The notes beneath the pieces were generated by a model. That model saw only the letters and a program-made list of their open reading frames with translations. It had not been told where the DNA came from and ran no database searches. Positions 43,401 through 61,486 of a stretch of 61,486 nucleotides of DNA are shown one piece after another. Numbering within the stretch: the stretch's first letter is position 1; each line of letters opens with the position of its first letter. The position numbers were made by a program, and so were the translations under genes. The stretch is from a virus. Lineage: Duplodnaviria > Caudoviricetes. The stretch covers positions 1 through 61,486 of IMG/VR virus record IMGVR_UViG_3300032215_000085; one strand, 5' to 3'.

Positions 43401-46400
43401 CTTACTGGAAATACGCCAAAGTTTGGTATGTTAGTTACCGGTTACTCAATACCAGCAAATACTTTTGTTATTGGGGTGTCTGGTGAGTATGTATCATTGT
43501 CTAATATTGTTAGAAAAACTCCGCAGGTGCAATTTGTAGATTTTACTGGTGTAATTTATAATCTTAATACAAGACTAAATCAGGGTACAACTACTATTAC
43601 TGGTACTTCAGGTGATACGTCAATCGCTTTGAATTATTCAGTCACTAACTTACAGCCAGGACAAATCAAAGGACTACAATTATATTTCTACAAAATAATT
43701 AATCCATATACATATGTTGACCCAAGATCAGGTGGTGCAACTATCAAAGTATTCAAGCCAAACTTTGCAGTACAAAGCATAACAGATGAATATTTTATTC
43801 AAATTATTGATCCTGGTACTATTTACACGGGCGGAGACACTATTGTAATTAAAGGTAGTAATTTGGGAGGTGTTGACGGTGTTAATGATGCTAAGATAAC
43901 AGTAAATATGGCTGATAGTCATGGTGGAATAAACGTATATGAATTGCACGGGGTAGCAGTACATGTGTTTGCACAATATTATGTTAAACCAATAAGTCAA
44001 ACACAAGTGGCATTATTCTACGATGCCGCACTGTTGAGACCTGTACCAAATAATGCCTTTACATTCCATAGTGGTGATTACGCATATATCCCAGAACCAA
44101 TCTATATTACATCTGGGCACACTCGTAGTCCTTATAGTTTAGTAAACTATAATAACACTTTGTATCGTTGTATTACAAGTAATCACGACATTACATTTGA
44201 TTTTAACAAATGGGAAGAAGTACGCAGTGATGAATTTGATTTGAATGCATTAGATAGAATCATGGGGTTCTATAACCCAACAGATAATATGCCAGGTAAA
44301 AATTTACCAATGTTAGTTTCTGGTATTGATTATCCAAACAATACTTATTTTGGTCAATCTTTTAATGATTTAGTAAATGAACTAGACACTATATTAAAGG
44401 ATCAAATATTCTACCCTAGCAATATTAATTTATACGGTATTATAGTAACTGACCAGAATGTTTTGGTTGCAATCGGTGATACCGAATCGTATTCTATTAT
44501 AATGTTGAGTTACGACACCGGAGTTACTTGGACTATTAAACAAATCAGTAAAAACGTATTAAATGTACAAGATATTATATATGACGAAGGACATTATGTT
44601 ATCGTAACAGGCAACATACATTCACCAATACTTACTAGTAACGATTTAGAACATTGGGTATCAGTGGGTGATTTTACACCATATGATACTACTAAGTTTG
44701 ATGATACAGGATACGATAGTTCCTCAATCTCTGCACCAAAAGACAAACTGCATAGTGTAATTTATAATAACAATTTCTATATTGCTGTAGGTGATGAGTT
44801 ATTGGTTAGTACAGATAGTTATACTTGGAACGTTCAATATAGCTTTCAAAGTCAATTGCCTCAACAATTTAACCGTGTAGCATATGTATCATCTGCGTTC
44901 TTTGATGGTTATATTGCTACTGGTCTTGGTACAATTACAAATACTACTGTTAATGGTTATACATCATTAGTTTCTACTTCTAAAACCTTCAGAAGTTTGA
45001 ATGGTTTGGATTGGCAAGAAATACTACCAAGAGTAGTAACAACTGGATTGAATGTAATATTGTCATCAGGAACTATAATAATTTTAGCTGGTGATAATTA
45101 TAAGGTATTTACATCAACTAACTCACATGCATGGGATCCGGCAGCAATTAATGGAGCCGCAAAAACATCAAACTTGTTGAACGGATTATATGCTAATGGA
45201 ATGTTTATTATTGTAGGTGATGATGGTACCATTATAACTAGTTCAGATGGAATTAACTGGAGTGAGGTAGAATCTAATACTACTAAATCATTGTTTGCAG
45301 TCACATACACCAATAATCATTGGATTATTGTTGGTGCTGATGCTACTATTTTACGTAGTAATGATGCTGTTATTTGGGAAAATGTATCATTGATTAAGAC
45401 AGAAGAAAACTTCTATCAAATCAAAGGTGATCCGTTTATATCTGGTTATGGTCCAGAAGAATTAGTGCCAAGCGTATTGACAGATACATTGACTATGACA
45501 GTAACTACACGTCCAGGAAGTACGTGGGCAGTTGAAGATTACCCATTCAATGGATTTACAGTTAAAACATTTACAAATGCACTTACTAGTTTACCAATTG
45601 ATTTTTCAATGGTTACTGAAAATCCCGCACAACTTGCAGTGTACTTAATGGACTCTTCTACCAATTTAGGACTTAGAATCTATGAAGATATTACACCTAC
45701 ATCAACTAATAGCTATTCATATTCTATTGATTGGATTAAACAATCAATCACACTAAGTACATTGGATAGTATAAGTTTATACGATGATACTAAACATTTG
45801 CAAATTGAAGTCTATGAATTTGGTAATGGTAATCAAGAAACAAGAAGCAATTCACAGAATATGCCATTACGTATTGACTCGGTGACTGGTCATAGCGAAA
45901 TATGGTTAGGTTTTGCATATGCACCAACTGTGTACGCTACACCGATTGTCTACCTAAACGGTAAGCCTTTAATATACTTAGATGACTATGTAATTTCTAC
46001 TACTGCATCTAAGCAAGCTAAATTGTTGTTCAATACAACATATCATCCTGAAAATGATTATTTAAGTTTTGTAATAATGGGTACACCAGTAAACTTTAAA
46101 CAAAATAGTTTTAGTGTACCGCAAACACAAATATTTGAAGTTGCACCTTCTATAACTAGTTTGACGTTAGATAATTTTGTTGGTTTACCCTCAGGCGGAT
46201 ATACAAATGATGTGGATGCTATCGTAGAATATAACGGTTCACGTTTAATTTCTACTGTAGACTATACTATCGCAGTTGATACTGGTACAGAAATTGGTAC
46301 AGTGACATTGTTGTTCAATCCAGCATCTGATGAAGATTTAATTAGTGTCACTACATTCCATGACACACATGACCAATACTTGTTAACAGAAAATATTAAC

Positions 46401-47525
46401 ACACTACAAATAACTCCATTAGTATATGTCAATACTGATAAGGGTGATTTGACATTGATTGTTACTTCAACCCCTGAGTTTATTACCGGTGACTTGATAA
46501 CAGTTGATGGAATAGTAGGTACTACCCAGTTAAATGGCAACAAATATTATGCTAGATTATTGGATTCGGTAACAGAAGGTTCAATCACATATCAACCAAT
46601 TAAATTATTTTATGATTCTTTATTAGCAAAACCAGTAACTGGAAAAGTATTAACAAAGTATGTTTCTGGCGGATACGTTTGGAAATCTTCTAATACATAC
46701 GTAATAAATCAACCTAGTTTAACGTTAACTAATATCAATAGATTATTTGTAACGGTTAATGGATACAGAGTTGATAATAGTAGATTAAAATTAAAGAGCG
46801 GAAACAAACTTAACATATTGGAAGCAATCAATATTGGTGACAAAGTTGTAATCACTAGCATGATTTCTAACCCTACACCAAATCAAATGGTATATGTAAA
46901 TCATATTGATAAAAACGGTGAACAGTTAATATACCGTGCTAATTCGGGTGTAAGAACTTGGTTAGCAAAAGATTTAGAAGTACTAGATAGCCAAATATAT
47001 GTTGATAATGTTGCTAAGTTATTAGATTTAGTTAAGGAAAAAGTAGTTGCAGTTGTTGTAAATGATACTGTTGCATGTTTTGTTAACTATGCAGTTGAGA
47101 CTATTAAAGAAATTTCTGTATATAATATCTCTACACTAACTCAAATTAGTCCTGAAAATATTACTTTGTCTATTAGAAATTCTAGACCAGTAATCTATAT
47201 AGCTAAGGGGGCTTCTGAATCTGATAATTTAGAAGTTTCTTTGCGCTTAGGTAATACTATTAATATTGATGGGGAAATTATTACTTTTAAGAAGGTTAAT
47301 ACTAAAACTAACATCATCTCAGGAATTACCCGAGGAGTTAATGGATCTGGTGCTAGAAAAATGCACACTGAATATACTATGGTTTATGGAGTTAAGTTGA
47401 CTAACACATTGTTCAATTACTACTACAACCGTACTTGGAACAGTGAGGAATACTCAGCAGAGGGTGATCCATTACAAATTAGTGACAGCTTCCCGGCTAA
47501 CTTCTTACAGGTCGGTACAGAATAA
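31404..47525 (+). CDS. Giant (5373 aa) multidomain baseplate/receptor-binding structural protein in the gp7 position
   Basis: Uninterrupted 16.1-kb ORF after gp6; FG-GAP-like repeats, CBM5/12-like segments, Asp-box repeats. Confidence 0.75.
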   Translation: MANRVRTLDFLPEIFRTETNNQFLGATLDQLITLPKLDKIEGYIGRKFEYGLTASDSYIVEPNKVRQQYQFEPGVVFTKTNTSTAVDFLTYPGLVDALAAENGSVINHSKLFANQFYSWDSFVDLDKLVNFSQYYWLPDGPDVVDVKTSLLYNKLDYVVTNQSIDYQISANDISLGKNPIISLLRGGTYTFNISQPNKFYIQTSPGTSGKNPSRTNLSNREIYGVDNNGINSGFMTFTVPYATDQDNIRYPGNNPVDIVTTLPFEKIHGMPLSKLKDIDGVNSLRNRTLMFYGFKPGTTAKLTNFYDNVAFDEVTYDGGDLTVITNNFYKINYVSEDGGDPVIILTEHKVIPTNQKITAIFGETFISRDFVKNQLGEIVKLAQITADLDTLYYQDAVDPLKTGLIKLVEDNVSHKINVETDILGKKTYKSPFGVVFTNGMKINFVGSILPESYRDKKYYVEGVGTGIQLIPETDVLVPETFSQIVYKSYDNEGFDTSTFSERLNVPVVKDYITISRNARNRNAWSRSNRWFHIDVLKATALYSSGKISNAALNNADNRAKRPIIEFYPNLKLFNSGTVHKTFVDFIDTTTTNANTQVSGKTSYIPDGSLPLFDGATIVFTADTDIEVRNKIFTVKFQSITGFGTPVITLTNANKDVILANEQVVSKRGTNNVGKTYYFSGSTWTYAQAKTLINQPPIFDVFDINGISFNNQSYYQGSDFKGSKLFSYATGTGTDDTVLGFPIKYSSVANIGDINFNVDFNSDTFNFIKNFVSTTYKITDGYVHNYTSRTGYSRKIGWETAVGESFQYQAFEFQYQIGVTTPSIKFNILPVTGSPWPTVRVFADSTELTTSQFTVTTSTKLNQTVITLLYPPTVNTMMQVLIYSNDPLDSKAYFTIPSNLSNNPFNVDIPELSLGDLRGHYQSIYKNSRKVTGDVFGANNFRDAGNLISYSTKIIRNSAPMVNLAAFMRHNEYNLIDSLSFNAQEYVKFKQLMLSTVDQSEYIPTMSGAQMLDDVLQQIASYKQESDSFFWSDMLPARAPYISKTYTFNAFIDTSFFPLSKIYDFKNANYNSILVYSKNTISGIDRYTQLIKDLDYTISSTQPKLQITKDLVAGDTIIINEFNTTYGSYVPSTPSKLGLYPASRPSIVLDNSYLIPTYFIKGHDGSLTKLYGAYNNGYLEDFKDKVLLEFETRIYNNIKVSSPIPINEDEIIPGYFRSTGNSLTEVQNIYSANFLDWAGKNNIDFANNFYSTSEKFTWNYKDSTDKNNKVITQGFWRGIYLWYYDTTTPHSTPWEMLGLSDKPSWWDSRYGEAPYTSDNAVLWSDIEAGRVNGAVNSRRTRPGLSKILPVDSYGNLKNPFNTMIRDYSKSVFNTAWDVGDVGPAEYSYRRSSNWPFDLMKIIALLKPAKFFSLSQDIDLYTYSPEFNQFLLDGFLHENKIPLLYGSGTAQHSYMNWIVDYVQRTGHVGYDNVTTLLNNLDVRLIYRIAGFTDKEYLNFYLEKTSTNSNNVSLLLPSESYNVILYQNQPEFTIRYSSIIIQRTLNGYSVTGNNQTRSYFMTYTSDPDGTYKEIEVNGIKVNIPNNYNTKIKYVPYGNVFATAQALGEFIINYGRYLTDQGIQFDNQENGFILNWDQMVAEALYWVGANWEVGSLISINPIANRLVIDKDSLIVQPLSAQDKNFILNQNLYAIHTSDLAILRDDTRFEVRPLNDGDTISYFTASLNSLEHGIVFDNVSLFNDTIFNKLTGLRQNRLFLRGQKTAEWNGTLNAQGFILNQDNIENWSANVKYVKGSIITYQNKYWMANKTVLASLTFNTNDWIETDYEKIQKGLLPNASTRASESALYYDTKTANLKNDGDLLGFSLIGYRPREYLSASDLSDISQVNLFKSFIGEKGTKNAVNIAQNITLDVGQIKYDVYENWAIKTAEYGGITNHNFIEFKLSKTQLTGNPNIIGIVNDTPEPGLLQTVPLYGLTNFGSVIADINILPRKPLDYFEKLPSAGYVNFNDIKMYSFSFDRLCVGTLTANDIYQGDYIWIADDYGNWKVITPIPMGTIEKHVNVINVNNNFNGTVTFEFDFPHGLVKNDTFMIVNYDSSIDGFYRVNTVGGLTTVTVDLSLPSEITVITSLGIASKFQTQRITTTKELSNLLLMNDGASQQKIWIDTDQNGKWAVYQKDLSYKYTNLLKKSGTQNFGNAVIFDKDLGVYVGDPGAKTIYRYAYAKAGTYGVTSLNANTYEYKESVYVNTTGFGTAMAKSDDIIVITSPDAANSYIYIGVLHPSSHKSFVVQQLITIAGKRVGDAVALSGDKKWLYLNSLAEAKVYVYRLDDNPNRISAGFVLSSPIDLYATGFIVAGDQSDGLGHGDKISFTNAIKAETYIIETAEYDLGTNKTTFYIQGNFKSPVVNGTTVYKVTYNYSSVTTLDVSDVIPAWSGSTSYSVGAVVYYSGNTYIAVGGSTNQNPRTQTVYWKVSNTGFGTTLSTNYDGSKVFISAPALDFTPTLFNMGAVYVYTRIVQNITYVRDSLDWTDLTTKLAWAPFNGISVIHNGNLLVPNIDYTTTSNLVTFKYPFRVGAGDLVNISSGDFIFTQTLTPYDYRTSIRSGIAFGTGLDTNRFGNDVLVGAPFDISPENYEGAVYRYTHEGKKYGTVTGIRPVTLSYGAVIFINGFAVPIPGTGVTDIVKAINGLGLSPDQSLNVGATEMPGGILRLYLIDNTLGKLNDKLTISAFYKSVLDDLGIAEYTQTQTIREVHSTTHPTQFGYSIKFNEYNSVAISAPVANRFAATTFDFIDDSKSNNDTYFDNNFTRFVDSFANAGAVFVYDYIAEYNESLTNLGSYVFAQSCNDLITNVGPNAFYGKKLAFSEYNLVVGIPDNLSGDGFNGRVIVYRNSTNKPNWNIFRKSNVIVDIDKLSGVQIYNNDTNERIQSLDYIDPLQGKLLGVVLENLDYIDSIDPAGYNTDVRNHNLVWSSEHVGKLWFDTSSTRFVNYHQEDNVYNSKYWGTVFPDSTVSVYTWVESDVTPVNYAGTGRPYDLESYTTTVEVDSAGSLVLKYYYWVKNTNVIQIVKGKTLSDTILELYIANPITSGVPFFAAYKPNVFGLYSASEFITDVTSSLYIGFSSGSNETPAYNEYKLIRAGYEDDFISGIPSMYTEHTEPEAMYEKLLDSLAGMDSQGRVVPDIYLPKLMQTGTAYRPRQSMFKNRLKALSNYFGYANNVLKQYPIAEFKTPSLLGSSNSASSTVRAPTFFTITGIDFDTTKYWEYTYWWAEGYSVNTKIDVEVSKYYGLATLIPNTGTIAGVTANSEGKREVYVYNGKSWDRIGLEQGTIQIKESLWNYSGNKIGFDSNFFDLDAYDSYPSMETRYIIRALNEQIYTETLRIHRNKSLILLFEYIVSENTTSQNNLTWLNKTSLVDVQHTLRELAQDKNYKRDNQVFLEGFINEVKPYRVVIKEFLLKYTKSESYTGQVTDFDLPGRYNPTIDRFITPNLVFDSVKATGQVLPTNTIWTDSLYSDWYNNYGISLTGKANTPITSLAVYLDTISAVLYVNDAFGLPITGRIKIDDEYIDYSQINREKGKLYSLTRGAGNSDIAEHIPGTTVYIDLPGVVLLDSGRDYIDPPQISAVVDTTIYPAPTRPATLVPIMSSGKVIDIVVTDPGLGYTTKPDIVIQASVTVLFDSADINYVDNTININAVSLITGDAIKYTKGLTSLGISGLQNKKYYYVRVISSDNLFHKKSVIALYTTKNNAMIDSHRVNLAESVNSINNRLEVSARAVPIISNTPTRELTSTLKFDRTSYRTKVEDWISGEYYGSLVTNNGTESSLDLPVNYAIPYPGVTGVATHPGRLTDGAGAIFNIYNILFGLIYDAEITFEGTSYDVGDIVTIAGANLGGTTPTNNCRLTVTAISNVGGITAVTVAGTPSTVTRASIQQAILPITSVGSVNATIASTTAGSIFGNQFVASGTIQGLFIPGMILSGGTIPAYSVYITEVVTAKFTAEIFGTSTVKILTGNTPKFGMLVTGYSIPANTFVIGVSGEYVSLSNIVRKTPQVQFVDFTGVIYNLNTRLNQGTTTITGTSGDTSIALNYSVTNLQPGQIKGLQLYFYKIINPYTYVDPRSGGATIKVFKPNFAVQSITDEYFIQIIDPGTIYTGGDTIVIKGSNLGGVDGVNDAKITVNMADSHGGINVYELHGVAVHVFAQYYVKPISQTQVALFYDAALLRPVPNNAFTFHSGDYAYIPEPIYITSGHTRSPYSLVNYNNTLYRCITSNHDITFDFNKWEEVRSDEFDLNALDRIMGFYNPTDNMPGKNLPMLVSGIDYPNNTYFGQSFNDLVNELDTILKDQIFYPSNINLYGIIVTDQNVLVAIGDTESYSIIMLSYDTGVTWTIKQISKNVLNVQDIIYDEGHYVIVTGNIHSPILTSNDLEHWVSVGDFTPYDTTKFDDTGYDSSSISAPKDKLHSVIYNNNFYIAVGDELLVSTDSYTWNVQYSFQSQLPQQFNRVAYVSSAFFDGYIATGLGTITNTTVNGYTSLVSTSKTFRSLNGLDWQEILPRVVTTGLNVILSSGTIIILAGDNYKVFTSTNSHAWDPAAINGAAKTSNLLNGLYANGMFIIVGDDGTIITSSDGINWSEVESNTTKSLFAVTYTNNHWIIVGADATILRSNDAVIWENVSLIKTEENFYQIKGDPFISGYGPEELVPSVLTDTLTMTVTTRPGSTWAVEDYPFNGFTVKTFTNALTSLPIDFSMVTENPAQLAVYLMDSSTNLGLRIYEDITPTSTNSYSYSIDWIKQSITLSTLDSISLYDDTKHLQIEVYEFGNGNQETRSNSQNMPLRIDSVTGHSEIWLGFAYAPTVYATPIVYLNGKPLIYLDDYVISTTASKQAKLLFNTTYHPENDYLSFVIMGTPVNFKQNSFSVPQTQIFEVAPSITSLTLDNFVGLPSGGYTNDVDAIVEYNGSRLISTVDYTIAVDTGTEIGTVTLLFNPASDEDLISVTTFHDTHDQYLLTENINTLQITPLVYVNTDKGDLTLIVTSTPEFITGDLITVDGIVGTTQLNGNKYYARLLDSVTEGSITYQPIKLFYDSLLAKPVTGKVLTKYVSGGYVWKSSNTYVINQPSLTLTNINRLFVTVNGYRVDNSRLKLKSGNKLNILEAINIGDKVVITSMISNPTPNQMVYVNHIDKNGEQLIYRANSGVRTWLAKDLEVLDSQIYVDNVAKLLDLVKEKVVAVVVNDTVACFVNYAVETIKEISVYNISTLTQISPENITLSIRNSRPVIYIAKGASESDNLEVSLRLGNTINIDGEIITFKKVNTKTNIISGITRGVNGSGARKMHTEYTMVYGVKLTNTLFNYYYNRTWNSEEYSAEGDPLQISDSFPANFLQVGTE

Positions 47526-55092: not shown

Positions 55093-57410
55093 AACGCCGT
55101 AAAGAATTGTTTGACCAAGGGTACTGGGAAGTACCTGATGGATTGAACACTGTTAACTTTGATTTTAGTTGGCGTCCCGACCCTATGGATAGACCTTATA
55201 TCCATCAGTTTGGCACACAATGGCAAAAGACCGGAGGTCCGCGATTTGTTATACCGGAGAATGAAGGTGTAAAATATCAAGACCATCAGATAGCAATACA
55301 TCTTTCTAATCATAACAATCGTTGCTGGAGACAAATCTTAGCAAACTGTACGATTGATTTTAGCTGGCACCCAGATGACACAGAGCCACCATTCATATAT
55401 GTGTTCTATAATCAATGGCATGACTCTCCTACATATCAATATCGTGTGCCCGGTGCCACTGATAAAAAATATATTACTAATCTTAAAGCATATCTACTAC
55501 CAGAGAAAGAATATTGGGGAATACCTGACGATATTGATGAAAGTAAGTTTGACTTTAGCTGGAGACCAAACCCTGATGAACCACCTTTTATACATCAATT
55601 TGGTACGCAATGGCAAAAGACAGGCGGACCTAGATATATTGTTGAAGGTGCAACAGAAGTAAAATATGTTGACACATTGAAAGCAATCAAATTACCTGAT
55701 ATGCGTAAGTGGCGCATACTAGAAGAAATTGATACAGATAAGTTTGACTTTAGTTGGCATCCAGACGATACTGAACCACCCATGATGTATGAGTTTGGAA
55801 CACAATGGCAACCAGCAGGTGGTCCGATATACGTTACAAACGGCAGCACACAGAAGAAATACTGTAGTGACCAAGTTGCTATACGAATAGCAAAAGAAGA
55901 TAGATGCTATAGACCATTAGTATCAAATCTACAGTTTGATTATAGCTGGCATCCCGATCCTAATGAACCACCATACATATATGTGTTTGGTAATCAATGG
56001 TATGATGCAGAAGTAATGCCCACACTATTATATCGGGTGAAAGATGCAACTGAAAAGAAATACGTAACAGATGTAAAAGCCAGACTAACTGAAAAGATGG
56101 ATAACTGGGTTACTCCCGACGATGTAGATTATACTGTATTTGATTATAGCTGGTGCCCTCATCCCGGCGAGCCTCCATTAATACATCAGTTTGGCACTCA
56201 GTGGCAACGCAGTGGAGGACCTTCATATGTTGCAAAAGACGCAACTGCTATAAAATACGAAGATGTTATTAAATCAGTTAAGAAACCTAATATACGCAAC
56301 TGGCGCATTATAGAACCTATTGACAAAAATACATTTGACCTTAGCTGGCATCCTGATATTACTGAAGAAAATTATAATCATGTGTTTGGTACTAAGTTTC
56401 ATAAGCCTGAAGTATTACCTGCGTTGATGTATCGAGGGCATGATGATGCTAGAAACAACAAATACTGTAATGATTTGCAAGCAGATTTGCAGATTGAAAA
56501 GGTTATCTATGAGGACAGTATCTTTGACGCATGTAAAAATCATAAGTTCTCTACTGCATATGTACATTTTATTAAGAATACAAATAGTAACTACTTACAT
56601 GAATTGATTAAGGCTGATAATGTAAGTGTGCATTTGTTCCCTAGTGAAGCCATTGTTCCAAGAGATGCAGTTCAATATATGTATGACAAACTATTGGATT
56701 ATGATTATGTGGTCAATCATAAATTTGATGAGACAGTTGAACCATTAGATGTTATATTTGTTAGTAACGGTGAAGTATGCGCCGAAGAAAACTATGAACA
56801 TCTATTATCGCTTGGTATTTTAAATAGAATCATACGTATTGATGGCGTAAAGGGTCGTGTGGCAAGTCAACATGCGGCTGCTAATGCTAGTAACACACCG
56901 TGGTATTTCTTAGTCAATGCTAAACTAAAAGTCAGAGAAAATTTCAATTTTAATTGGCAACCCAACATACATAAGTCACGCAGACATTATATTTTTACTG
57001 CCACCAATCCTGTAAATAAATTAGAATATGGACATCAAGCAATAGTAGCAAACAATAAAAAGTTAACATTGAATACCGTTGTTCGTGGATTAGACTACAC
57101 AATGGATAGTAAGACAGAAGTGTTGTCAGTTAATTCTGGCATCAGCACATTTAACACAAGCCCCTGGGATACATGGCGCACTGCATTCAGAGAAGTTATT
57201 AAATTGAAACACTATACTGATGTTGATTCTAAGCGTAGATTAGATGTTTGGTTAACTATTAGAAATGAGTTGTTTGGTGATTATAGTATCAAAGGTGCAA
57301 ATGATGCTGTTAAATACTATGATGAAGTTGATGGTGATATGGATAAACTTATGTTATCCTATGATTGGGAATGGTTGGAGCAAAGATATTACAAATGTTT
57401 AAAAAATTAG
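55071..57410 (+). CDS. Seven ~65-aa tandem repeats plus a C-terminal degenerate GT-like domain
   Basis: Repeat FD(F/Y)SW(H/R)P...PP.I..FG.QW; C-terminus similar to 52728..53675. Confidence 0.8.
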   Translation: MEKFIDIKRRKELFDQGYWEVPDGLNTVNFDFSWRPDPMDRPYIHQFGTQWQKTGGPRFVIPENEGVKYQDHQIAIHLSNHNNRCWRQILANCTIDFSWHPDDTEPPFIYVFYNQWHDSPTYQYRVPGATDKKYITNLKAYLLPEKEYWGIPDDIDESKFDFSWRPNPDEPPFIHQFGTQWQKTGGPRYIVEGATEVKYVDTLKAIKLPDMRKWRILEEIDTDKFDFSWHPDDTEPPMMYEFGTQWQPAGGPIYVTNGSTQKKYCSDQVAIRIAKEDRCYRPLVSNLQFDYSWHPDPNEPPYIYVFGNQWYDAEVMPTLLYRVKDATEKKYVTDVKARLTEKMDNWVTPDDVDYTVFDYSWCPHPGEPPLIHQFGTQWQRSGGPSYVAKDATAIKYEDVIKSVKKPNIRNWRIIEPIDKNTFDLSWHPDITEENYNHVFGTKFHKPEVLPALMYRGHDDARNNKYCNDLQADLQIEKVIYEDSIFDACKNHKFSTAYVHFIKNTNSNYLHELIKADNVSVHLFPSEAIVPRDAVQYMYDKLLDYDYVVNHKFDETVEPLDVIFVSNGEVCAEENYEHLLSLGILNRIIRIDGVKGRVASQHAAANASNTPWYFLVNAKLKVRENFNFNWQPNIHKSRRHYIFTATNPVNKLEYGHQAIVANNKKLTLNTVVRGLDYTMDSKTEVLSVNSGISTFNTSPWDTWRTAFREVIKLKHYTDVDSKRRLDVWLTIRNELFGDYSIKGANDAVKYYDEVDGDMDKLMLSYDWEWLEQRYYKCLKN

Positions 57411-57949
57411 ACTTCACATTAGATATAGATTTTGAAAAAATAAAAAATGACCAAATGATGGAATCATATGGTGGGACTTTCTTTAGCTATGCAATAAAAG
57501 ACATGGAATATTTTAATAGTATTTTAAAAAAGAATGTTAAATTTAATATCACTCCTTTCTCAATAAACTATACTGAAATTTCAAAAGAGGGAGCACAGCC
57601 TCATACTGATGGACCTTTAGTTGCATTAAACTACTATTTGCAAACCAACGGTGATGCCACGTTATTTTGGGAATCAACTACCCCTGATATAAAAATCTTA
57701 CCACCTAATCAAGGATTTGACGGTGGACCTGTTAATGAAAATTCAACAGTATTAGGTTATGATGCAACTAAATTAAAATTAGTTAATTATTTTATAGCTA
57801 AAGACAATGATGCCTATTTGTTTGATGTGTCAAAAATACACTCAATTTCTGGCAAGGATTATAATTTTGTGAGAAGATTTATTAGAATCTTTTGGGAAAA
57901 TGTAACATTTGACGAAGTATTAAACAGCATTGAAATACTCCCAAAATAG
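57395..57949 (+). CDS. Putative 2OG-Fe(II) oxygenase/cupin-fold protein
   Basis: PHTD...ALNYY...KIHSI...R pattern (HxD...H...R). Confidence 0.5.
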   Translation: MFKKLDFTLDIDFEKIKNDQMMESYGGTFFSYAIKDMEYFNSILKKNVKFNITPFSINYTEISKEGAQPHTDGPLVALNYYLQTNGDATLFWESTTPDIKILPPNQGFDGGPVNENSTVLGYDATKLKLVNYFIAKDNDAYLFDVSKIHSISGKDYNFVRRFIRIFWENVTFDEVLNSIEILPK

Positions 57950-57978
57950 TTGACCATAACTAAATACTATGATACAAT
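57950..57978 (+). promoter_or_regulatory. Nested promoter: sigma70 TTGACC-17-(TG)TACAAT with late motif CTAAATA in the spacer
   Basis: -35 at 57950-55, late motif at 57960-66, -10 at 57973-78. Confidence 0.6.
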
Positions 57979-57988
57979 AGGAACTGTT

Positions 57989-58144
57989 ATGGAACTAGTA
58001 CGATACAGAGATGCGGGTATGAATACATATACTTGGTTTTATGTAAATGACAAAAAACATTGTATTAGCCCATTTTTTGACACAGAGGAAGAAGCCAAAG
58101 ATTGGTTTCAAAAAGTGTTTGACGGTGATAAGGAATTAAAATGA
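57989..58144 (+). CDS. Small hypothetical protein
   Basis: ATG 57989 with AGGA RBS after the promoter; SPFFDTEEEAKDW. Confidence 0.6.
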   Translation: MELVRYRDAGMNTYTWFYVNDKKHCISPFFDTEEEAKDWFQKVFDGDKELK

Positions 58145-58443
58145 AAAAAGTATTATTCGCATTGTTGTTAGTATCTGGTTCGGCATTTGCCCAACATAAT
58201 GATTACTATAGACATGAACATCATGGTTATTGGCAACGTGACGTTGATCTCGGATGGATGTGGGTAGCACCCACAATCATCGGCGGTGTTATTGGATATG
58301 AGATTGCAAGAAATCAACCACCGGTTATAGTTCAACAACCACCAGTGATAGTTCAAAATCCTCCACCTAAAGTATGCAGTCCTTGGACTGAGGTACAAAA
58401 TTCGGATGGAACGATTACACGTACACGTACTTGTAATCAGTAA
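58141..58443 (+). CDS. Secreted/membrane protein with signal peptide and Pro-rich repeat
   Basis: MKKVLFALLLVSGSAFA signal; IIGGVIGYEIA; QPPVIVQ x2. Confidence 0.75.
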   Translation: MKKVLFALLLVSGSAFAQHNDYYRHEHHGYWQRDVDLGWMWVAPTIIGGVIGYEIARNQPPVIVQQPPVIVQNPPPKVCSPWTEVQNSDGTITRTRTCNQ

Positions 58444-58449
58444 GTTTTT

Positions 58450-58551
58450 ATGTTTGAAAATTGGCATTGGGTTTATATGTGGGGCATATTAGTTGTAGTT
58501 AACTATATGTTCTGGATAGTAAAAAGTCTTTTTGACAACGTGAAAGAGTAA
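58450..58551 (+). CDS. 33-aa single-TM small protein (not in track)
   Basis: MFENWHWVYMWGILVVVNYMFWIVKSLFDNVKE; fills the gap up to the tmRNA. Confidence 0.45.
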   Translation: MFENWHWVYMWGILVVVNYMFWIVKSLFDNVKE

Positions 58552-58618
58552 GTTATTGCTGTATGAAGCAAAGAGAAATGTGTTCTGGACGGGGGTGCGA
58601 ATCCCCCCAGGTCCACCA
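58552..58618 (+). ncRNA. ssrA: Permuted tmRNA, acceptor piece (3' part; 5' boundary approximate)
   Basis: TGTTCTGGAC, T-arm GGGGG-TGCGAAT-CCCCC, acceptor strand CAGGTCC-A-CCA ending at 58618. Confidence 0.9.
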
Positions 58619-58629
58619 TAAGGAAGTTT

Positions 58630-58818
58630 GTGAAAAGTAAAAGTAAGTTCAGTCGTTATAATCTTAAAGGCAACATTATGTGGTGCCTAAATTTGCGTAA
58701 CGGATGGATAAGAATATACAATCATCATATTCGTTGGAATACAGATTGGACGCCAAATTATACATACTTTTTAGTAGAACAGATAAAAGTTTCTTTAATA
58801 AGGAAGTTTTATGAGTAA
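58630..58818 (+). CDS. Small ORF 1 inside the tmRNA intervening segment
   Basis: GTG start after AAGGAAG; 62 aa. Confidence 0.45.
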   Translation: MKSKSKFSRYNLKGNIMWCLNLRNGWIRIYNHHIRWNTDWTPNYTYFLVEQIKVSLIRKFYE

Positions 58819-58993
58819 AGTTTTAAAAGATATTGACCAGCTAATCCTAGATTATGCAGGTCTTCCCGAATATGTATATTCCACTCGTATTTTGGAGGCT
58901 GCTAAATCGGAAATAATTCGGTTGAAAAATTCTGAATCCGAAGCTGAATATTTTAGAACTTTATGCGAAGGGTACGAAAAAACTTCTTTATGA
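58811..58993 (+). CDS. Small ORF 2 inside the tmRNA intervening segment
   Basis: ATG after AAGGAAG; 60 aa, helical-looking; stop lies 1 nt before tmRNA G1. Confidence 0.6.
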   Translation: MSKVLKDIDQLILDYAGLPEYVYSTRILEAAKSEIIRLKNSESEAEYFRTLCEGYEKTSL

Positions 58994-58994
58994 T

Positions 58995-59153
58995 GGGCCT
59001 GCATAGTTTCGACAGGGCAACTAGTAACAGAGTGGACAGCACGGTAGGCGATGACCGTTAATCAAGCAAAAAAAGTAACCGCAAACGACTCACAGTTCGC
59101 ATTAGCAGCCTAAACACTGCTTAGGGTAAGACATACCTCGTAACAGAAAATCA
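58995..59153 (+). ncRNA. ssrA: Permuted tmRNA, coding piece (5' part) with tag ANDSQFALAA* at 59081-59113 (3' boundary approximate)
   Basis: GGGCCTG pairs with CAGGTCC including G3-U; D-loop-like CATAGTTTCGAC; CAGGGCA pairs with TGTTCTG; pk1-like ACGGT/ACCGT stem; resume codon GCA. Confidence 0.92.
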
Positions 59154-59221
59154 GAAAAGGCTCTTTGGAGCCTTTTTCTTTGGCATAATTTTTCTAATAA
59201 ATACTATATTAAATAGGATAA
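59139..59221 (+). repeat. 83-bp direct repeat, copy 1 (tmRNA tail + terminator + late promoter + RBS)
   Basis: Identical to 61404-61486. Confidence 0.95.
59155..59177 (+). terminator. Intrinsic terminator after the tmRNA
   Basis: AAAAGGCTC-TTTG-GAGCCTTTTT. Confidence 0.85.
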
Positions 59222-59224
59222 ATT

Positions 59225-61408
59225 ATGTCAGATAGATATTGGGTCGGGGGTACAGGCACCTGGGATGCCTCAACCACAACAAATTGGAGTACTGCTTCAG
59301 GTGGTGCATCGGGAGCAAGTGTGCCCACATCAGTTGACAGCGTGTTCTTTAATGTAAACTCCAATGTGGGAACAGGTACATTTACAGTTACAATAGCAAC
59401 AGGTACTCGATCTTGCTTGGACTTCACAGCATCGGGTCTTGATGGGGCCATGACTTTGGCCGTAACAGGCGGTGTGTCTGTTTATGGTAATTGGTCAACC
59501 CCGGCCGCAAACTTTTCTACAAGCGGTGTTGGTACTGTCGATTTTCTTACACCCACTGGTGCCAGCAATACTATAAACACATCTGATATATCTCTTGGTT
59601 CGATTGGTATTCTGTTTGGGTTTAGTGTAACAAGCACAGGGACTATCACACTAGCAAGTTCATTGACAACAACTGGTACATTAACTTTGACTTCTGGAAC
59701 ATTGGCCACCGCAGGATTTGCGGTATCTGCGGTCGGCATGCAGCACACCAGCGGAACTTTTGTACTAAATCTTGGAGCATCAACAGTCACATTAACTGGA
59801 ACTACTCCAGTTAATGTGACTGGCGCTGGGTTAACCATAAACGCAGGTACTTCTACTATTACTTGTAATAACACTGCTAGTACTACTTTTCTCCTGTATG
59901 CGGCCACAACATTTTATAATGTTGCATTTACAGGTGCAAACCAAGGTGTAACATTTAACGGTGCAACAACGCTGGTCAATACCCTGGTATTTAATAATTT
60001 ATCATTCTCTACTGGACCCACAACCGCAGGTCGAAAATCATTGAGTTTCTATGCTGGTTGTTCTTGCACCATCAATGGCACGTTGACAATAGCAGGTGGT
60101 GTGGATGCAAGATTTCGAAATAGTTTTGGTGCAGTAAATATTACGTATCTACAAATGTCTCTAACCTGCAATACATACGCCATTTCAAATGTTGATTTTA
60201 TAAATTGCGCTGTGTCTGGTACCACAGCAACTGGTACCAGCATTGGTGATGCAGGGGGCAATTCTAATATCACATTTACAACACCCAAAACTGTGTATTG
60301 GAGTCTGCTAACGGGCGGTGTAATTACTGGAACAGCGTATGCCACATCATCGGGTGGTACTCCAGCAAATGCAAATTTTCCACTGCCGCAAGACACACTG
60401 ATTTTTGATAACACCGGGTTGAATACCAGTGCCACAGTCACTTGGTCAACATCATATTATCTACCAGCAATAGATGCAAGTACAAGAACAAATGCAATGA
60501 CCATATCTTTTGGTACAACCACAAGTTATATCTGCGGTAATGTCAGTCTACCATCGAATGTAATAATAACCGCCTCAACTGGTTCTTTGGCCTTGCAAAC
60601 AATTGGATCAAATACAACAAACACCATTAGTATGGCCAGCTTCTCTGGGTTACAACTTGTTATCAATGGTTTCAATAATGGAACCATAAAACTTTTAAGA
60701 AATCTAACTCATAGTACCGTTGCCAACTCCCCTACTTCTCAGTACAGAGGAACATTTGATTTAAATGGATTTACTTTCATTTGTCCTTATTATACAGTGG
60801 TATCGGGAGTAGGATTCACTATGACATGTGTAATGGCGTTTGGCTCAGGAGGATCAATTGCAGTCAAGGCAACCCAATCAAATGCTTTTATAATTAACAA
60901 CGCAAACACTAGCTGGAGTTATACTGGTACTGGAACCATTAAAGGTAGTCTTTCGACTACCCCTGTGTTTACTATAAACAATCCAGCAGGACAGTCTTTG
61001 CCAACCATAGGACTCAATGGTACCGCTACAGTAACTATTTTAAATAGTTGTACTATTGCTGACGTAGCTGTTGTCACCGCAGGTGTAGCATGTGCATTGA
61101 AACTGACCAGCGGAATTACAGTAACAGCCACCAGCTTTACTCTAACTGGTTCTGCTGGGTTTTTAGCAAGTATCAGTGCTGTAACAGCAGGATCACGGGC
61201 CACACTGACCAAAGCAGACGGCAGAGTCAGCAGTGATTATTTGAGCATACAAGATATCGCAGCCACTGGTGGCGTCACATGGTATGCAGGTGCAAACAGT
61301 ACCAGCGTATCAAACAACACAGGATGGACATTCACAGCACCACCGCCACTAGTAGTTGGTAGTGGTATTATTGTTGGTGAAGGTATTAACTTCGTTACAA
61401 TCCCGTAA
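59225..61408 (+). CDS. Adhesin/tail-fibre-like beta-helical protein (727 aa)
   Basis: RYWVGGTGTWD..NWS..SGG N-terminus; T/G/S-rich; late promoter AATAAATA at 59196-59203. Confidence 0.7.
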   Translation: MSDRYWVGGTGTWDASTTTNWSTASGGASGASVPTSVDSVFFNVNSNVGTGTFTVTIATGTRSCLDFTASGLDGAMTLAVTGGVSVYGNWSTPAANFSTSGVGTVDFLTPTGASNTINTSDISLGSIGILFGFSVTSTGTITLASSLTTTGTLTLTSGTLATAGFAVSAVGMQHTSGTFVLNLGASTVTLTGTTPVNVTGAGLTINAGTSTITCNNTASTTFLLYAATTFYNVAFTGANQGVTFNGATTLVNTLVFNNLSFSTGPTTAGRKSLSFYAGCSCTINGTLTIAGGVDARFRNSFGAVNITYLQMSLTCNTYAISNVDFINCAVSGTTATGTSIGDAGGNSNITFTTPKTVYWSLLTGGVITGTAYATSSGGTPANANFPLPQDTLIFDNTGLNTSATVTWSTSYYLPAIDASTRTNAMTISFGTTTSYICGNVSLPSNVIITASTGSLALQTIGSNTTNTISMASFSGLQLVINGFNNGTIKLLRNLTHSTVANSPTSQYRGTFDLNGFTFICPYYTVVSGVGFTMTCVMAFGSGGSIAVKATQSNAFIINNANTSWSYTGTGTIKGSLSTTPVFTINNPAGQSLPTIGLNGTATVTILNSCTIADVAVVTAGVACALKLTSGITVTATSFTLTGSAGFLASISAVTAGSRATLTKADGRVSSDYLSIQDIAATGGVTWYAGANSTSVSNNTGWTFTAPPPLVVGSGIIVGEGINFVTIP

Positions 61409-61486
61409 CAGAAAATCAGAAAAGGCTCTTTGGAGCCTTTTTCTTTGGCATAATTTTTCTAATAAATACTATATTAAATAGGATAA
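61404..61486 (+). repeat. 83-bp direct repeat, copy 2 (reaches the window end)
   Basis: Identical to 59139-59221; contains the stop codon of the 727-aa gene. Confidence 0.95.

What the first reader, a model, noticed from the sequence alone, without database searches (positions are those of the whole stretch)
58617..58994. tmRNA intervening segment carries protein-coding cassettes, each closed by its own inverted repeat
Seen: the 376-nt spacer is filled by two ORFs. Both start right after an identical 12-mer, ATAAGGAAGTTT (58618-29 and 58798-809), which doubles as the RBS. Each unit ends in a complementary arm: AAGTTTCTTTA (58787-97; 11 bp with 3 G-U) and AAAACTTCTTTAT (58979-91; 13 bp with 1 G-U). 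The outermost arms can also pair, juxtaposing CCA and G1. Inference: genes can be stacked in the spacer without disturbing tRNA-like folding, and tmRNA maturation would release them as an abundant mini-mRNA whose RBS is gated by the helix. This looks like an expandable cassette array inside an RNA gene, an arrangement I do not recognise as described.
Basis: partly seen in the sequence, partly recalled or inferred. Interest (0 to 1): 0.9.

Follow-up and report, generated by a model that had tools for sequence, protein, structure and literature searches.

The report
Two genes stacked inside phage tmRNA spacer
A lake phage's two-piece ribosome-rescue RNA (tmRNA) gene carries two real small protein genes, one behind the other, in the spacer that is cut out when the RNA matures; each gene sits alone in the same spacer of related phages, so this "throw-away" stretch acts as a swappable and occasionally stackable gene slot.

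Summary
Rfam finds a permuted tmRNA at 58557-59113 (109.7 bits). Its 376-nt intervening segment (IVS, 58619-58994) holds ORF1 (58630-58818) and ORF2 (58811-58993), each behind an exact ATAAGGAAGTTT, with the stated complementary arms.

Both ORFs are real genes. Free-standing homologues lie in ordinary operons of other phages, and dN/dS is about 0.13-0.3. Near-identical tmRNA alleles carry ORF1 alone (183-189 nt IVS) or ORF2 alone (196 nt); they differ from the window by clean 193- and 180-nt indels bounded by the repeated arms.

The outer arms are the family's conserved closing helix of about 11 bp: 89% of cells pair across 88 distinct IVS, against 41-59% when slid. The inner arms are the leftover helix halves of two fused single-gene spacers.

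It is not an assembly chimera. Contigs from three runs in two studies bridge the junction, in three sequence variants.

"Expandable array, each cassette with its own repeat" is overstated. Only 3 of 88 IVS hold two ORFs, none holds three, and the other two-ORF spacers lack inner arms.

Expression as a released mini-mRNA is untested. I found no paper describing protein genes in a tmRNA spacer. This scan has found single-gene cases before, on other DNA.

The parts
58440..58551 (+). 'Unit 0': a 33-aa small hydrophobic ORF (58450-58551, MFENWH...) just upstream of the tmRNA. It keeps relics of an IVS-type 5' arm and 3' arm.
   Evidence: One search lists the ORF; it aligns, flanks included, with the whole 98-nt IVS of L024 and L105, where the same gene lies inside the tmRNA spacer.
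58557..58618 (+). tmRNA acceptor piece (T arm plus 3' half of the acceptor stem), ending in CCA at 58616-58618.
   Evidence: Rfam RF04321 alignment. The 32-nt core matches at least 120 viral contigs exactly. 61 of 62 nt are identical to L014.
58619..58994 (+). Intervening segment (IVS), 376 nt, removed on maturation in two-piece tmRNAs.
   Evidence: It equals the 183-nt ORF1-type IVS plus the 196-nt ORF2-type IVS, minus the junction bases.
58618..58629 (+). 12-mer copy 1: outer 5' arm of the closing helix. It contains the Shine-Dalgarno sequence (AAGGA) of ORF1.
   Evidence: An SD-like motif lies in the first 10 nt of 36 of 40 ORF-bearing IVS, against 2 of 48 ORF-less IVS.
58630..58818 (+). 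ORF1, GTG start, 62 aa. This is the native 56 aa ending ...KVSL plus 6 codons read through the second 12-mer. A Trp-rich small protein of unknown function.
   Evidence: It lies alone in the IVS of L013/L042, L014/L039, L015, L016 and L017, and is free-standing in L018-L020. dN/dS is 0.29 against L013 and 0.13 against L018.
58785..58797 (+). Inner 3' arm (arm A): the former closing arm of the ORF1-type IVS. It encodes the ORF1 tail K-V-S-L and forms the 5' half of the junction hairpin.
   Evidence: (repeat D3).
58798..58810 (+). 12-mer copy 2 plus T: inner 5' arm, carrying the Shine-Dalgarno sequence of ORF2. It forms the 3' half of the junction hairpin.
   Evidence: The native hairpin 58784-58812 folds at -6.8 kcal/mol.
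58811..58993 (+). ORF2, ATG start, 60 aa, a predicted helical hairpin of unknown function. Its stop is the conserved TGA at 58991-58993.
   Evidence: 98% identical to the sole IVS gene of L002/L003. Free-standing homologues of 81-83 aa lie in L004-L012. AlphaFold2 mean pLDDT 87.8.
58979..58994 (+). Outer 3' arm (arm B) plus the conserved TGAT leader just before G1.
   Evidence: I1, I3. Covariation of the helix.
58995..59150 (+). tmRNA coding piece. G1 is at 58995, with a G3-U pair. The tag reading frame is 59081-59113 (ANDSQFALAA, stop TAA). The 3' end is approximate.
   Evidence: ARAGORN reports the tag ANDSQFALAA on L002 and L014. 99.4% identical to L002 up to 59127.
59155..59176 (.). GC-rich hairpin, a terminator-like site behind the tmRNA. 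It lies inside an 83-bp repeat.

Best explanation
The locus is a working two-piece (circularly permuted) tmRNA gene of an uncultured freshwater myovirus. Its excised spacer carries a two-gene mini-operon.

Shown:
- In this phage tmRNA family the spacer always ends in a closing helix of about 11 bp that lengthens the acceptor stem.
- In gene-bearing spacers the 5' arm doubles as the Shine-Dalgarno sequence. The 3' arm often supplies the last codons and the TGA stop.
- ORF1 and ORF2 are real, selected small protein genes.
- Each fills the spacer alone in close tmRNA alleles.
- The window's spacer is those two complete single-gene spacers joined head to tail.

Inferred origin: the resident was an ORF1-only allele of a syntenic phage (L014 type). 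It took up the ORF2 spacer plus coding piece from an unrelated phage's allele (L002 type, 99.4% identical). One crossover was homologous, in the conserved coding piece. The other was an illegitimate join between the end of arm A and the start of the donor's 5' arm. The conserved mature pieces on both sides of the spacer serve as homology arms. That explains why cargo is swapped so freely in the family.

The inner arms are therefore a fusion scar that still has uses. Arm A encodes the tail of ORF1. Copy 2 of the 12-mer is the RBS of ORF2. Together they form a hairpin that hides that RBS.

Inferred expression:
- The precursor, or the excised spacer, is translated.
- Ribosomes must open the outer helix to start ORF1.
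- Ribosomes finishing ORF1 (stop at 58816-58818, 5 nt past the ORF2 ATG) melt the junction hairpin and so couple ORF2 to ORF1.
- The repeated arms (12 of 12 and 11 of 13 bases) also make the pair prone to losing either unit by recombination.
For: tmRNA identity:
- RF04321 scores 109.7 bits over all 213 model positions.
- The same gene with only ORF2 scores 131.8 bits.
- ARAGORN reports the tag ANDSQFALAA on those alleles.

Family:
- Of 128 records with an acceptor piece, 119 had both pieces and 9 were cut by contig ends.
- They give 88 distinct IVS of 25-491 nt.

Helix:
- IVS position i pairs with position L-4-i in 925 of 1045 cells (89%), against 41-59% when slid by 1-3 bases.
- Several compensatory pair types occur at positions 4-11.

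Genes in the spacer:
- 37 of 57 distinct IVS of at least 80 nt hold one ORF that starts in the first 30 nt and covers at least 70%. Shuffled interiors give 6.0 +/- 2.2, with a maximum of 12 in 200 shuffles.
- 17 of the 37 end on the conserved TGA.
- An SD-like motif is present in 36 of 40 gene-bearing IVS against 2 of 48 others.
- The arms of gene-bearing IVS are weaker: -5.7 against -8.2 kcal/mol.
- Cargo elsewhere includes proteins above the Pfam cut-offs: CxxCxxCC and GNAT.

ORF1 and ORF2 are real:
- Free-standing homologues lie in tight operons without a tmRNA.
- ORF1 dN/dS is 0.074/0.257 against L013 and 0.31/2.36 against L018. Substitutions in ORF2 homologues are biased to the third codon position.
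- ORF2 folds confidently, mean pLDDT 87.8.

Single-unit alleles:
- L002/L003 lack exactly 180 nt, bounded by the 12-mer.
- L014 is syntenic: 85% over 55325-58124, 94.4% over 58439-58797 and 98% over 58978-59229. It lacks the ORF2 unit.
- L002 matches only 58798-59127 (99.4%) and the acceptor piece (93.4%).

Not a chimera:
- X1: a 413-nt contig matches 58601-59013 exactly.
- X2: a 414-nt contig with 12 substitutions and 6 gaps.
- X3, from another study in 2017: a 400-nt contig with 11 substitutions and 8 gaps.
- All three bridge 58797/58798.

Folds: nested -154.8 against side-by-side -137.1 kcal/mol; junction hairpin -6.8 kcal/mol.
Against: - There is no expression evidence for this allele. I have none for transcription, translation, or the processing sites.
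- The left join shows no microhomology, so its mechanism is unknown. The direction of change (two singles fused, or singles derived from the double by deletion between the repeated arms) rests on parsimony and on the greater diversity of ORF1-only alleles, not on a rooted tree.
- ORF1's structure model is poor (pLDDT 59), and neither protein has a known family.
- Few database proteins match either ORF: 4 for ORF1 and 2 for ORF2.
- X1 may be the window's own source sample, and X2 is from the same study as X1.
Confidence: 0.75

Rival explanations
1. A dedicated cassette system. The arm pairs are recombination sites, comparable to attC sites. Single-gene units are cut out and inserted, so the spacer is a truly expandable array served by an enzyme encoded elsewhere.
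For: - Unit boundaries are clean. They fall on an exact 12-mer repeat and on an 11-of-13 repeat of the 3' arm.
- The same 5' arm, TAAGGAAGTTT, precedes six different cargoes.
- Identical cargo sits in unrelated phage backbones.
- An arm-bounded unit also lies outside the spacer.
- About twenty cargo families share one slot.
Against: - No tyrosine or serine recombinase was found in the 61.5-kb fragment. This is only about 18% of the genome, so the result is weak.
- The arms covary freely and differ between cargoes, so no conserved core site exists.
- The other two-ORF spacers have no inner arms.
- No spacer holds more than two ORFs among 88 distinct IVS.
- The junction motif was not found inside any other tmRNA among 79 viral-contig hits.
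- Homologous recombination in the conserved flanking tmRNA pieces explains the swapping without any special enzyme.
Confidence: 0.12
2. The stacked spacer is an assembly chimera of two co-occurring alleles, one ORF1-only and one ORF2-only.
For: - Both single alleles exist, and an ORF1-only form co-occurs in run X2 (joint 58790 to 58984).
- The junction 30-mer is absent from other IMG/VR contigs and from JGI metagenome contigs.
Against: - Contigs of three runs from two studies (2017 and 2022) bridge the junction. They come in three different sequence variants, one with an extra TA at the join.
- The shared 12-mer is shorter than assembler word sizes, so the novel junction must exist in reads.
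Confidence: 0.02
3. The ORFs are not expressed from the tmRNA transcript in a meaningful way. The spacer merely tolerates inserted DNA, and the genes are decaying passengers.
For: - There is no direct expression evidence.
- The RBS of each ORF is sequestered in a helix.
- ORF1 has lost its native stop in the window.
Against: - Purifying selection acts on ORF1 within IVS-borne copies (dN/dS 0.2-0.3).
- ORFs are strongly enriched over shuffles.
- The SD motif is specific to gene-bearing arms, 36 of 40 against 2 of 48.
- 17 of 37 ORFs use the conserved TGA in frame as their stop.
- The X3 variant restores a TAA directly after ...KVSL.
Confidence: 0.06

Closest known systems
Circularly permuted two-piece tmRNA genes (Rfam RF04321, RF01849-51), including those of aquatic myophages such as OM43 phage Melnitz and pelagimyophages (PMC9004378, passages read; PMC11915505, passages read)
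   Same: Gene order of acceptor piece, intervening sequence, coding piece. T arm, G3-U acceptor stem, CCA and an ANDxxxALAA-type tag are present. The transcript is expected to be cut by tRNA-processing enzymes. Two-piece tmRNAs are known to be common in aquatic phages.
   Different: In the passages I read, described intervening sequences are short and non-coding. Here the spacer is 376 nt and holds two protein genes. Its closing helix doubles as the RBS and as the stop region.
Cargo in tmRNA intervening sequences noted in the 2025 tmRNA database paper (PMC11915505, passages read): a tRNA-Ala gene, called a 'unique feature', and a repetitive element in the longest gene (1152 bp)
   Same: Foreign functional sequence is tolerated inside the IVS of a permuted tmRNA gene.
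   Different: Those cargoes are an RNA gene and a repeat. Protein-coding cargo is not mentioned in the main text ('ORF' occurs 0 times). The supplementary tables could not be opened.
Group I introns with LAGLIDADG homing endonuclease genes in the tmRNA T-loop (PMC11915505, passages read)
   Same: A protein gene lies inside a stretch that is removed from the tmRNA precursor.
   Different: No intron is present: the only Rfam match in the window is the tmRNA itself. Removal would be by end-processing, not self-splicing. The cargo is not a homing enzyme, and the site is the permutation gap rather than the T-loop.
[quoted passage not shown]
   Same: In myoviruses, small ORFan genes are gained, lost and swapped between short conserved sequence blocks that also carry expression signals. 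Recombination between repeated blocks can delete or move units.
   Different: Here the flanking blocks are the halves of an RNA gene and its closing helix (RBS and stop). They are not promoter-terminator modules. Mini-circles were not looked for.
Integron gene cassettes with attC sites (recalled, no call)
   Same: Promoterless single-gene units, each ending in an imperfect inverted repeat, stacked head to tail at one site.
   Different: No integrase was found, there is no conserved core site, at most two units occur, and inner repeats are absent from the other two-ORF spacers.

Membership tests
Permuted (two-piece) tmRNA, Rfam RF04321 | Covariance-model score above the gathering threshold over the whole tRNA-like domain | tested here: met
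   109.7 bits against a gathering score of 47, model positions 1-213 (repeated).
Permuted (two-piece) tmRNA, Rfam RF04321 | Order of acceptor piece ending in CCA, then IVS, then coding piece starting at G1, with a G3-U pair in the acceptor stem | tested here: met
   CCA at 58616-58618. GGGCCUG at 58995 pairs with CAGGUCC at 58608-58614, with G3 opposite U.
Permuted (two-piece) tmRNA, Rfam RF04321 | Tag reading frame with a resume codon and a stop | tested here: met
   The frame at 59081-59113 reads ANDSQFALAA then TAA. ARAGORN reports the same tag on alleles L002 and L014. ARAGORN itself misses the window.
Permuted (two-piece) tmRNA, Rfam RF04321 | Processing into two RNAs, and function in trans-translation | not testable with these tools
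   Only contigs of one RNA run were laid. They cannot show RNA ends.
Integron-like cassette array | A site-specific recombinase associated with the array | tested here: not met
   PF00589 and PF00239 give 0 matches in the 61.5-kb record. The record is about 18% of the genome by CheckV, so absence is not proven.
Integron-like cassette array | Every cassette bounded by its own conserved recombination site | tested here: not met
   Inner arms occur only in this lineage. L078 and the L052 type have plain junctions. The arms covary rather than keep a core.
PeSL-type modular shuffling cassettes of T4-type phages | Units flanked by repeated sigma-70-like promoter plus terminator stem-loop modules | tested here: not met
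   Within the IVS, the promoter-like and terminator-like sites were no more frequent than in shuffles. The repeats here are RBS and stop arms. An 83-bp terminator-containing repeat does bracket the next gene.
Group I intron with homing endonuclease in tmRNA | Group I intron fold interrupting the T-loop | tested here: not met
   The Rfam gathering search of the whole window returns only the tmRNA. The T-loop is uninterrupted in the alignment.

The most novel reading that the evidence does not exclude
The spacer of this phage tmRNA family is an evolved, portable expression slot.

- tRNA-type end-processing would release a stem-closed mini-mRNA whose RBS and stop are built into the closing helix.
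- Units of arm, gene and arm can be stacked. They can also be lost again by recombination between the repeated arms, moved between unrelated phages, and parked outside the RNA gene (unit 0).
- Translation of the cargo and maturation of the tmRNA would regulate each other, because a ribosome reading through the 3' arm must melt the helix that presents the RNase P site.
Probability: 0.2. Interest if true: 0.85.

Novelty: new variant of a known kind. Interest (0 to 1): 0.62.

Why it matters
tmRNA spacers are treated as disposable. The 2025 tmRNA database paper calls a tRNA inside one a unique feature. Here 40 of 88 distinct spacers carry ORFs, so a stable-RNA precursor probably also serves as a messenger.

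This window adds a natural before-and-after series:
- the same tmRNA with gene A alone;
- the same tmRNA with gene B alone;
- the same tmRNA with A plus B, with the join preserved to the base.

The series shows how the slot is filled. It also gives ready-made constructs for testing whether helix opening, translation and RNase P processing are coupled.

There is a practical point too. ARAGORN missed all 5 alleles tested with spacers of 256 nt or more, the window included. It found all 6 with spacers of 196 nt or less. Such genes and their cargo are therefore under-annotated.

Tried and rejected
- BLASTN of 58540-59190 against 50,697 deposited phage genomes gave one short hit: 71 nt at 77.5% in Xanthomonas phage BUDD. 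No cultured relative was found.
- ARAGORN on the window found nothing.
- Pfam and PHROGs gave no family for ORF1 or ORF2.
- The ESM Atlas gave only unnamed clusters: 0.91 at low recognition for ORF1, 0.86 for ORF2.
- Foldseek of the ORF2 model against BFVD gave 0 matches at E <= 0.001.
- The ORF1 model was too poor to search (pLDDT 59).
- The wide protein search gave only 4 hits for ORF1 and 2 for ORF2. Some ORF1 hits are gene-caller artefacts that start in the acceptor piece or run into the tag frame.
- The junction 30-mer was not found in viral contigs. A gapped junction pattern was not found in JGI metagenome contigs.
- A looser arm-junction pattern hit 79 viral contigs. None lay in a tmRNA of this family by nhmmer.
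- The acceptor core matched only 2 of 185,579 species genomes. Both are 20-23-kb contigs in Bacteroidota MAGs that look like binned phage DNA. Neither a bacterial source of this tmRNA nor a host can be named.
- RNA run X15: its contigs lie only over the mature pieces (58448-58632 and 58966-59150), and none lies inside this IVS. Some RNA contigs join the two pieces across other, unknown spacers, and one loose end resembles the L088-type spacer. DNA can be present in such a library, so I draw nothing from it.
- Promoter-like sites: 6 found against 4.8 +/- 2.1 in shuffles. The recalled T4 late motif TATAAATA occurs once, 8 kb away. The promoter of the tmRNA is not identified.
- Complex prediction was not used, because no claim is made that ORF1 and ORF2 bind each other.
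- Supplementary tables of PMC11915505 and PMC9004378 could not be opened. They may list phage tmRNAs with long spacers.

Passages were read. None describes such genes.
Full report
**What is there**

The window is an IMG/VR virus record of 61,486 bases, estimated 18% complete. It carries myovirus genes: major head protein, portal, baseplate wedge and an SbcC-like nuclease.

Rfam's permuted-tmRNA model RF04321 matches 58557-59113 on the + strand at 109.7 bits (gathering score 47), over all 213 model positions. A long insertion sits where the intervening sequence (IVS) belongs. ARAGORN finds nothing in the window.

The main landmarks are these:
- The acceptor piece ends in CCA at 58616-58618.
- The coding piece starts at G58995 and forms a G3-U pair with the acceptor strand.
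- The tag frame at 59081-59113 reads ANDSQFALAA then a stop. ARAGORN calls the same tag on sister alleles.
- The IVS is 58619-58994, 376 nt.

**The observation**

- the exact 12-mer at 58618 and 58798;
- ORF1 at 58630-58818 (GTG start, 62 aa);
- ORF2 at 58811-58993 (ATG start, 60 aa);
- the 11-bp and 13-bp complementary arms;
- an outer 22-bp helix that continues the acceptor stem.

Judged within the window alone, the repeats are only mildly unusual: 3 matches against 0.86 expected, with 4 of 100 shuffles as good. Their meaning comes from comparison with other phages.

**A large family of phage tmRNAs with variable spacers**

With the loci found through ORF1 and ORF2, 128 records held an acceptor piece. 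Of these, 119 also held the coding piece and 9 were cut by contig ends. They give 88 distinct IVS of 25-491 nt.

Numbering from the two ends, IVS position i pairs with position L-4-i.
- Over the first 12 positions, 925 of 1045 cells form standard pairs (89%). With the partner slid by 1-3 bases the figure is 41-59%.
- Positions 4-11 show many compensatory pair types. Position 5, for example, has GC 30, CG 21, AT 14, TA 10 and GU 10.

So a closing helix of about 11 bp that prolongs the acceptor stem is a conserved feature of the precursor, with or without cargo. The window's outer arms are this helix.

**Genes in the spacer are the rule for long spacers**

- 37 of the 57 distinct IVS of 80 nt or more hold a single ORF that starts within 30 nt of CCA and covers at least 70% of the IVS. 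Shuffling the interiors gives 6.0 +/- 2.2, with a maximum of 12 in 200 shuffles.
- 17 of the 37 stop on the conserved TGA three bases before G1.
- Adding the three two-ORF spacers gives 40 gene-bearing IVS. Of these, 36 have an SD-like motif in their first 10 nt, against 2 of 48 of the rest.
- The arms of gene-bearing IVS are weaker: mean -5.7 against -8.2 kcal/mol, and 1.9 against 1.0 G-U pairs.
- A crude clustering gives about twenty cargo families (23 clusters, a few of them spurious).
- Cargo includes proteins above Pfam cut-offs: CxxCxxCC (26.6 bits, cut-off 23) and GNAT (PF13508 28.5 bits, cut-off 27; PF00583 26.6 bits, cut-off 20.7).

**ORF1 and ORF2 are real genes**

ORF1 homologues fill the IVS alone in L013/L042, L014/L039, L015 and L016 (183 nt) and in L017 (189 nt). 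ORF1 also occurs as an ordinary 52-56-aa gene in tightly packed operons of other phages (L018-L020), where nhmmer finds no tmRNA.

Selection on ORF1:
- dN/dS is 0.074/0.257 against L013.
- dN/dS is 0.31/2.36 against L018.
- 21 residues are invariant in 9 sequences.

ORF2 is 98% identical to the only IVS gene of L002/L003. It is homologous to free-standing 81-83-aa genes in L004-L012 (about 37% identity over 56 codons). Those genes themselves evolve with dN/dS of about 0.1-0.2. AlphaFold2 models ORF2 as a helical hairpin with mean pLDDT 87.8. The ORF1 model is poor, at 59. Neither protein has a known family or fold match. Their functions are unknown.

The last residues of the IVS-borne proteins are dictated by the 3' arm (...KVSL...KTSL). 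The free-standing homologues end differently.

**The window is two single-gene spacers fused**

Against L002/L003 the window has exactly 180 extra bases, bounded by the 12-mer. The rest of the tmRNA gene is about 99% identical, and the flanks outside it are unrelated.

Against L014, which is a syntenic phage, the matches are as follows:
- 85% over 55325-58124;
- 94.4% over 58439-58797;
- 98% over 58978-59229;
- the window has 193 extra bases, bounded by the 11-of-13 repeat of the 3' arm.

L002 matches only 58798-59127 (99.4%) and the acceptor piece (93.4%). The window's acceptor piece is 61 of 62 identical to L014, against 57 of 62 to L002.

The simplest history is this. An L014-like resident allele acquired the ORF2 spacer plus coding piece from an L002-like allele of another phage. 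One crossover fell in the conserved coding piece. The other was an illegitimate join, ...CTTTA | ATAAGG..., which removed only the TGAT leader and the donor's acceptor piece.

The direction is inferred, not proven. Deletion between the repeated arms could equally regenerate either single form. More generally, the conserved mature pieces that flank every spacer are ready-made homology arms. That is enough to explain the free exchange of cargo.

**The inner arms**

With the outer helix enforced, the precursor folds at -154.8 kcal/mol and the inner arms form a local hairpin. The native stretch 58784-58812 folds at -6.8 kcal/mol. Enforcing "each unit closed by its own arms" gives -137.1 kcal/mol. 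The unit-1 closure is weak, at -4.4 kcal/mol with a test loop.

Both inner arms have other jobs. Arm A encodes the tail of ORF1, and copy 2 of the 12-mer is the RBS of ORF2. Because TGAT was lost at the join, ORF1 reads six codons further. It stops at 58816-58818, 5 nt past the ATG of ORF2. This layout suggests translational coupling through the hairpin, but that is inference.

The other two-ORF spacers are L078 (256 nt) and the L052 type (215 nt). The second gene of L078 occurs alone in L043/L051. Both spacers join their ORFs by a plain stop/SD sequence, without an inner 3' arm. No spacer with three ORFs was seen, and no recombinase lies in the fragment. "Array of self-closed cassettes" therefore describes this one lineage, not the family.

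**Not an assembly artefact**

Logan contigs bridge the join at 58797/58798 in three runs:
- X1: 413 nt, identical to the window. This may be the source sample.
- X2: 414 nt, 12 substitutions and 6 gaps. Same study as X1.
- X3: 400 nt, 11 substitutions and 8 gaps. A different study, from 2017.

The X3 form has an extra TA at the join. That gives ORF1 its native ...KVSL end followed by TAA TAA. An ORF1-only allele co-occurs in X2. The junction was not found in other IMG/VR or JGI contigs.

**Expression**

Expression is untested. Contigs of the one RNA run laid (X15) cover only the mature pieces of this and related tmRNAs.

**A third unit**

The 33-aa ORF just upstream of the tmRNA (58450-58551) aligns with the complete 98-nt spacer of L024 and L105. 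The alignment includes degraded copies of a 5' and a 3' arm. The same small gene therefore lies inside the slot in some phages and beside it in this one.

**What is known**

Two-piece tmRNAs in aquatic phages are described (PMC9004378, passages read). The 2025 tmRNA database paper mentions a tRNA gene and a repetitive element in intervening sequences, and homing endonuclease genes in T-loop introns. It does not mention protein genes in spacers: "ORF" occurs 0 times in its main text (PMC11915505). Five full-text searches and two further tmRNA papers gave nothing on this. Supplements were closed.

ARAGORN found all 6 tested alleles with spacers of 196 nt or less. It missed all 4 tested with spacers of 256 nt or more, and also the window. 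This may explain the silence in print.

The nearest process in print is PeSL-mediated modular shuffling in T4-type phages (PMC2839356, abstract read).

This scan has reported single protein genes in phage tmRNA spacers several times on other DNA. A word search for stacked units returned only arrays behind tRNA, tmRNA, rRNA or protein-coding genes, not inside the spacer.

**Verdict**

This is a new variant of a known kind: a two-piece tmRNA gene with a two-gene cargo. Its single-gene parent forms are preserved in nature. Interest 0.62.

Noticed in passing
window 58440-58551: A 33-aa hydrophobic ORF (MFENWH...) lies directly upstream of the tmRNA. It is homologous, arm relics included, to the complete spacer cargo of other phages' tmRNAs (L024, L053, L060, L070, L105). 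A spacer-type unit is thus parked outside the RNA gene.
   Followed up: partly
window 59139-59221 and 61404-61486: An exact 83-bp repeat starts in the tmRNA tail. It contains the terminator-like hairpin and brackets the 727-aa repeat-rich ORF at 59225-61408. The second copy ends exactly at the contig end, so it may also mark an assembly break. L014 has one copy (98.8%).
   Followed up: partly
window 58125-58438: The 100-aa ORF at 58141-58443 is absent from the syntenic relative L014, whose homology jumps from 58124 to 58439. This is another small indel next to the tmRNA locus.
   Followed up: no
L075, L083, L078, L036 and the window: ARAGORN misses permuted tmRNAs once the spacer reaches 256 nt or more (5 of 5 missed). 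It finds those with spacers of 196 nt or less (6 of 6). Long-spacer alleles will be unannotated in most phage records.
   Followed up: yes
P0003 (ENA protein, 98 aa); also L029, L045 and L024: In some alleles the spacer ORF has no stop before G1. As called, it runs on into the coding piece; in P0003 it runs on into the tag frame, ending ...ANDELYAMAA. It is unclear whether this is a gene-caller artefact or real read-through.
   Followed up: no
L142 (Crocinitomicaceae MAG) and L143 (Haliscomenobacter MAG): These are the only 2 of 185,579 species genomes with this acceptor core. Both hits are 20-23-kb contigs in Bacteroidota MAGs, probably binned phage DNA. At most this is a weak hint at the host phylum.
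   Followed up: partly
window 31404-47525: A single ORF of 5373 aa lies in the structural region of the phage.
   Followed up: no
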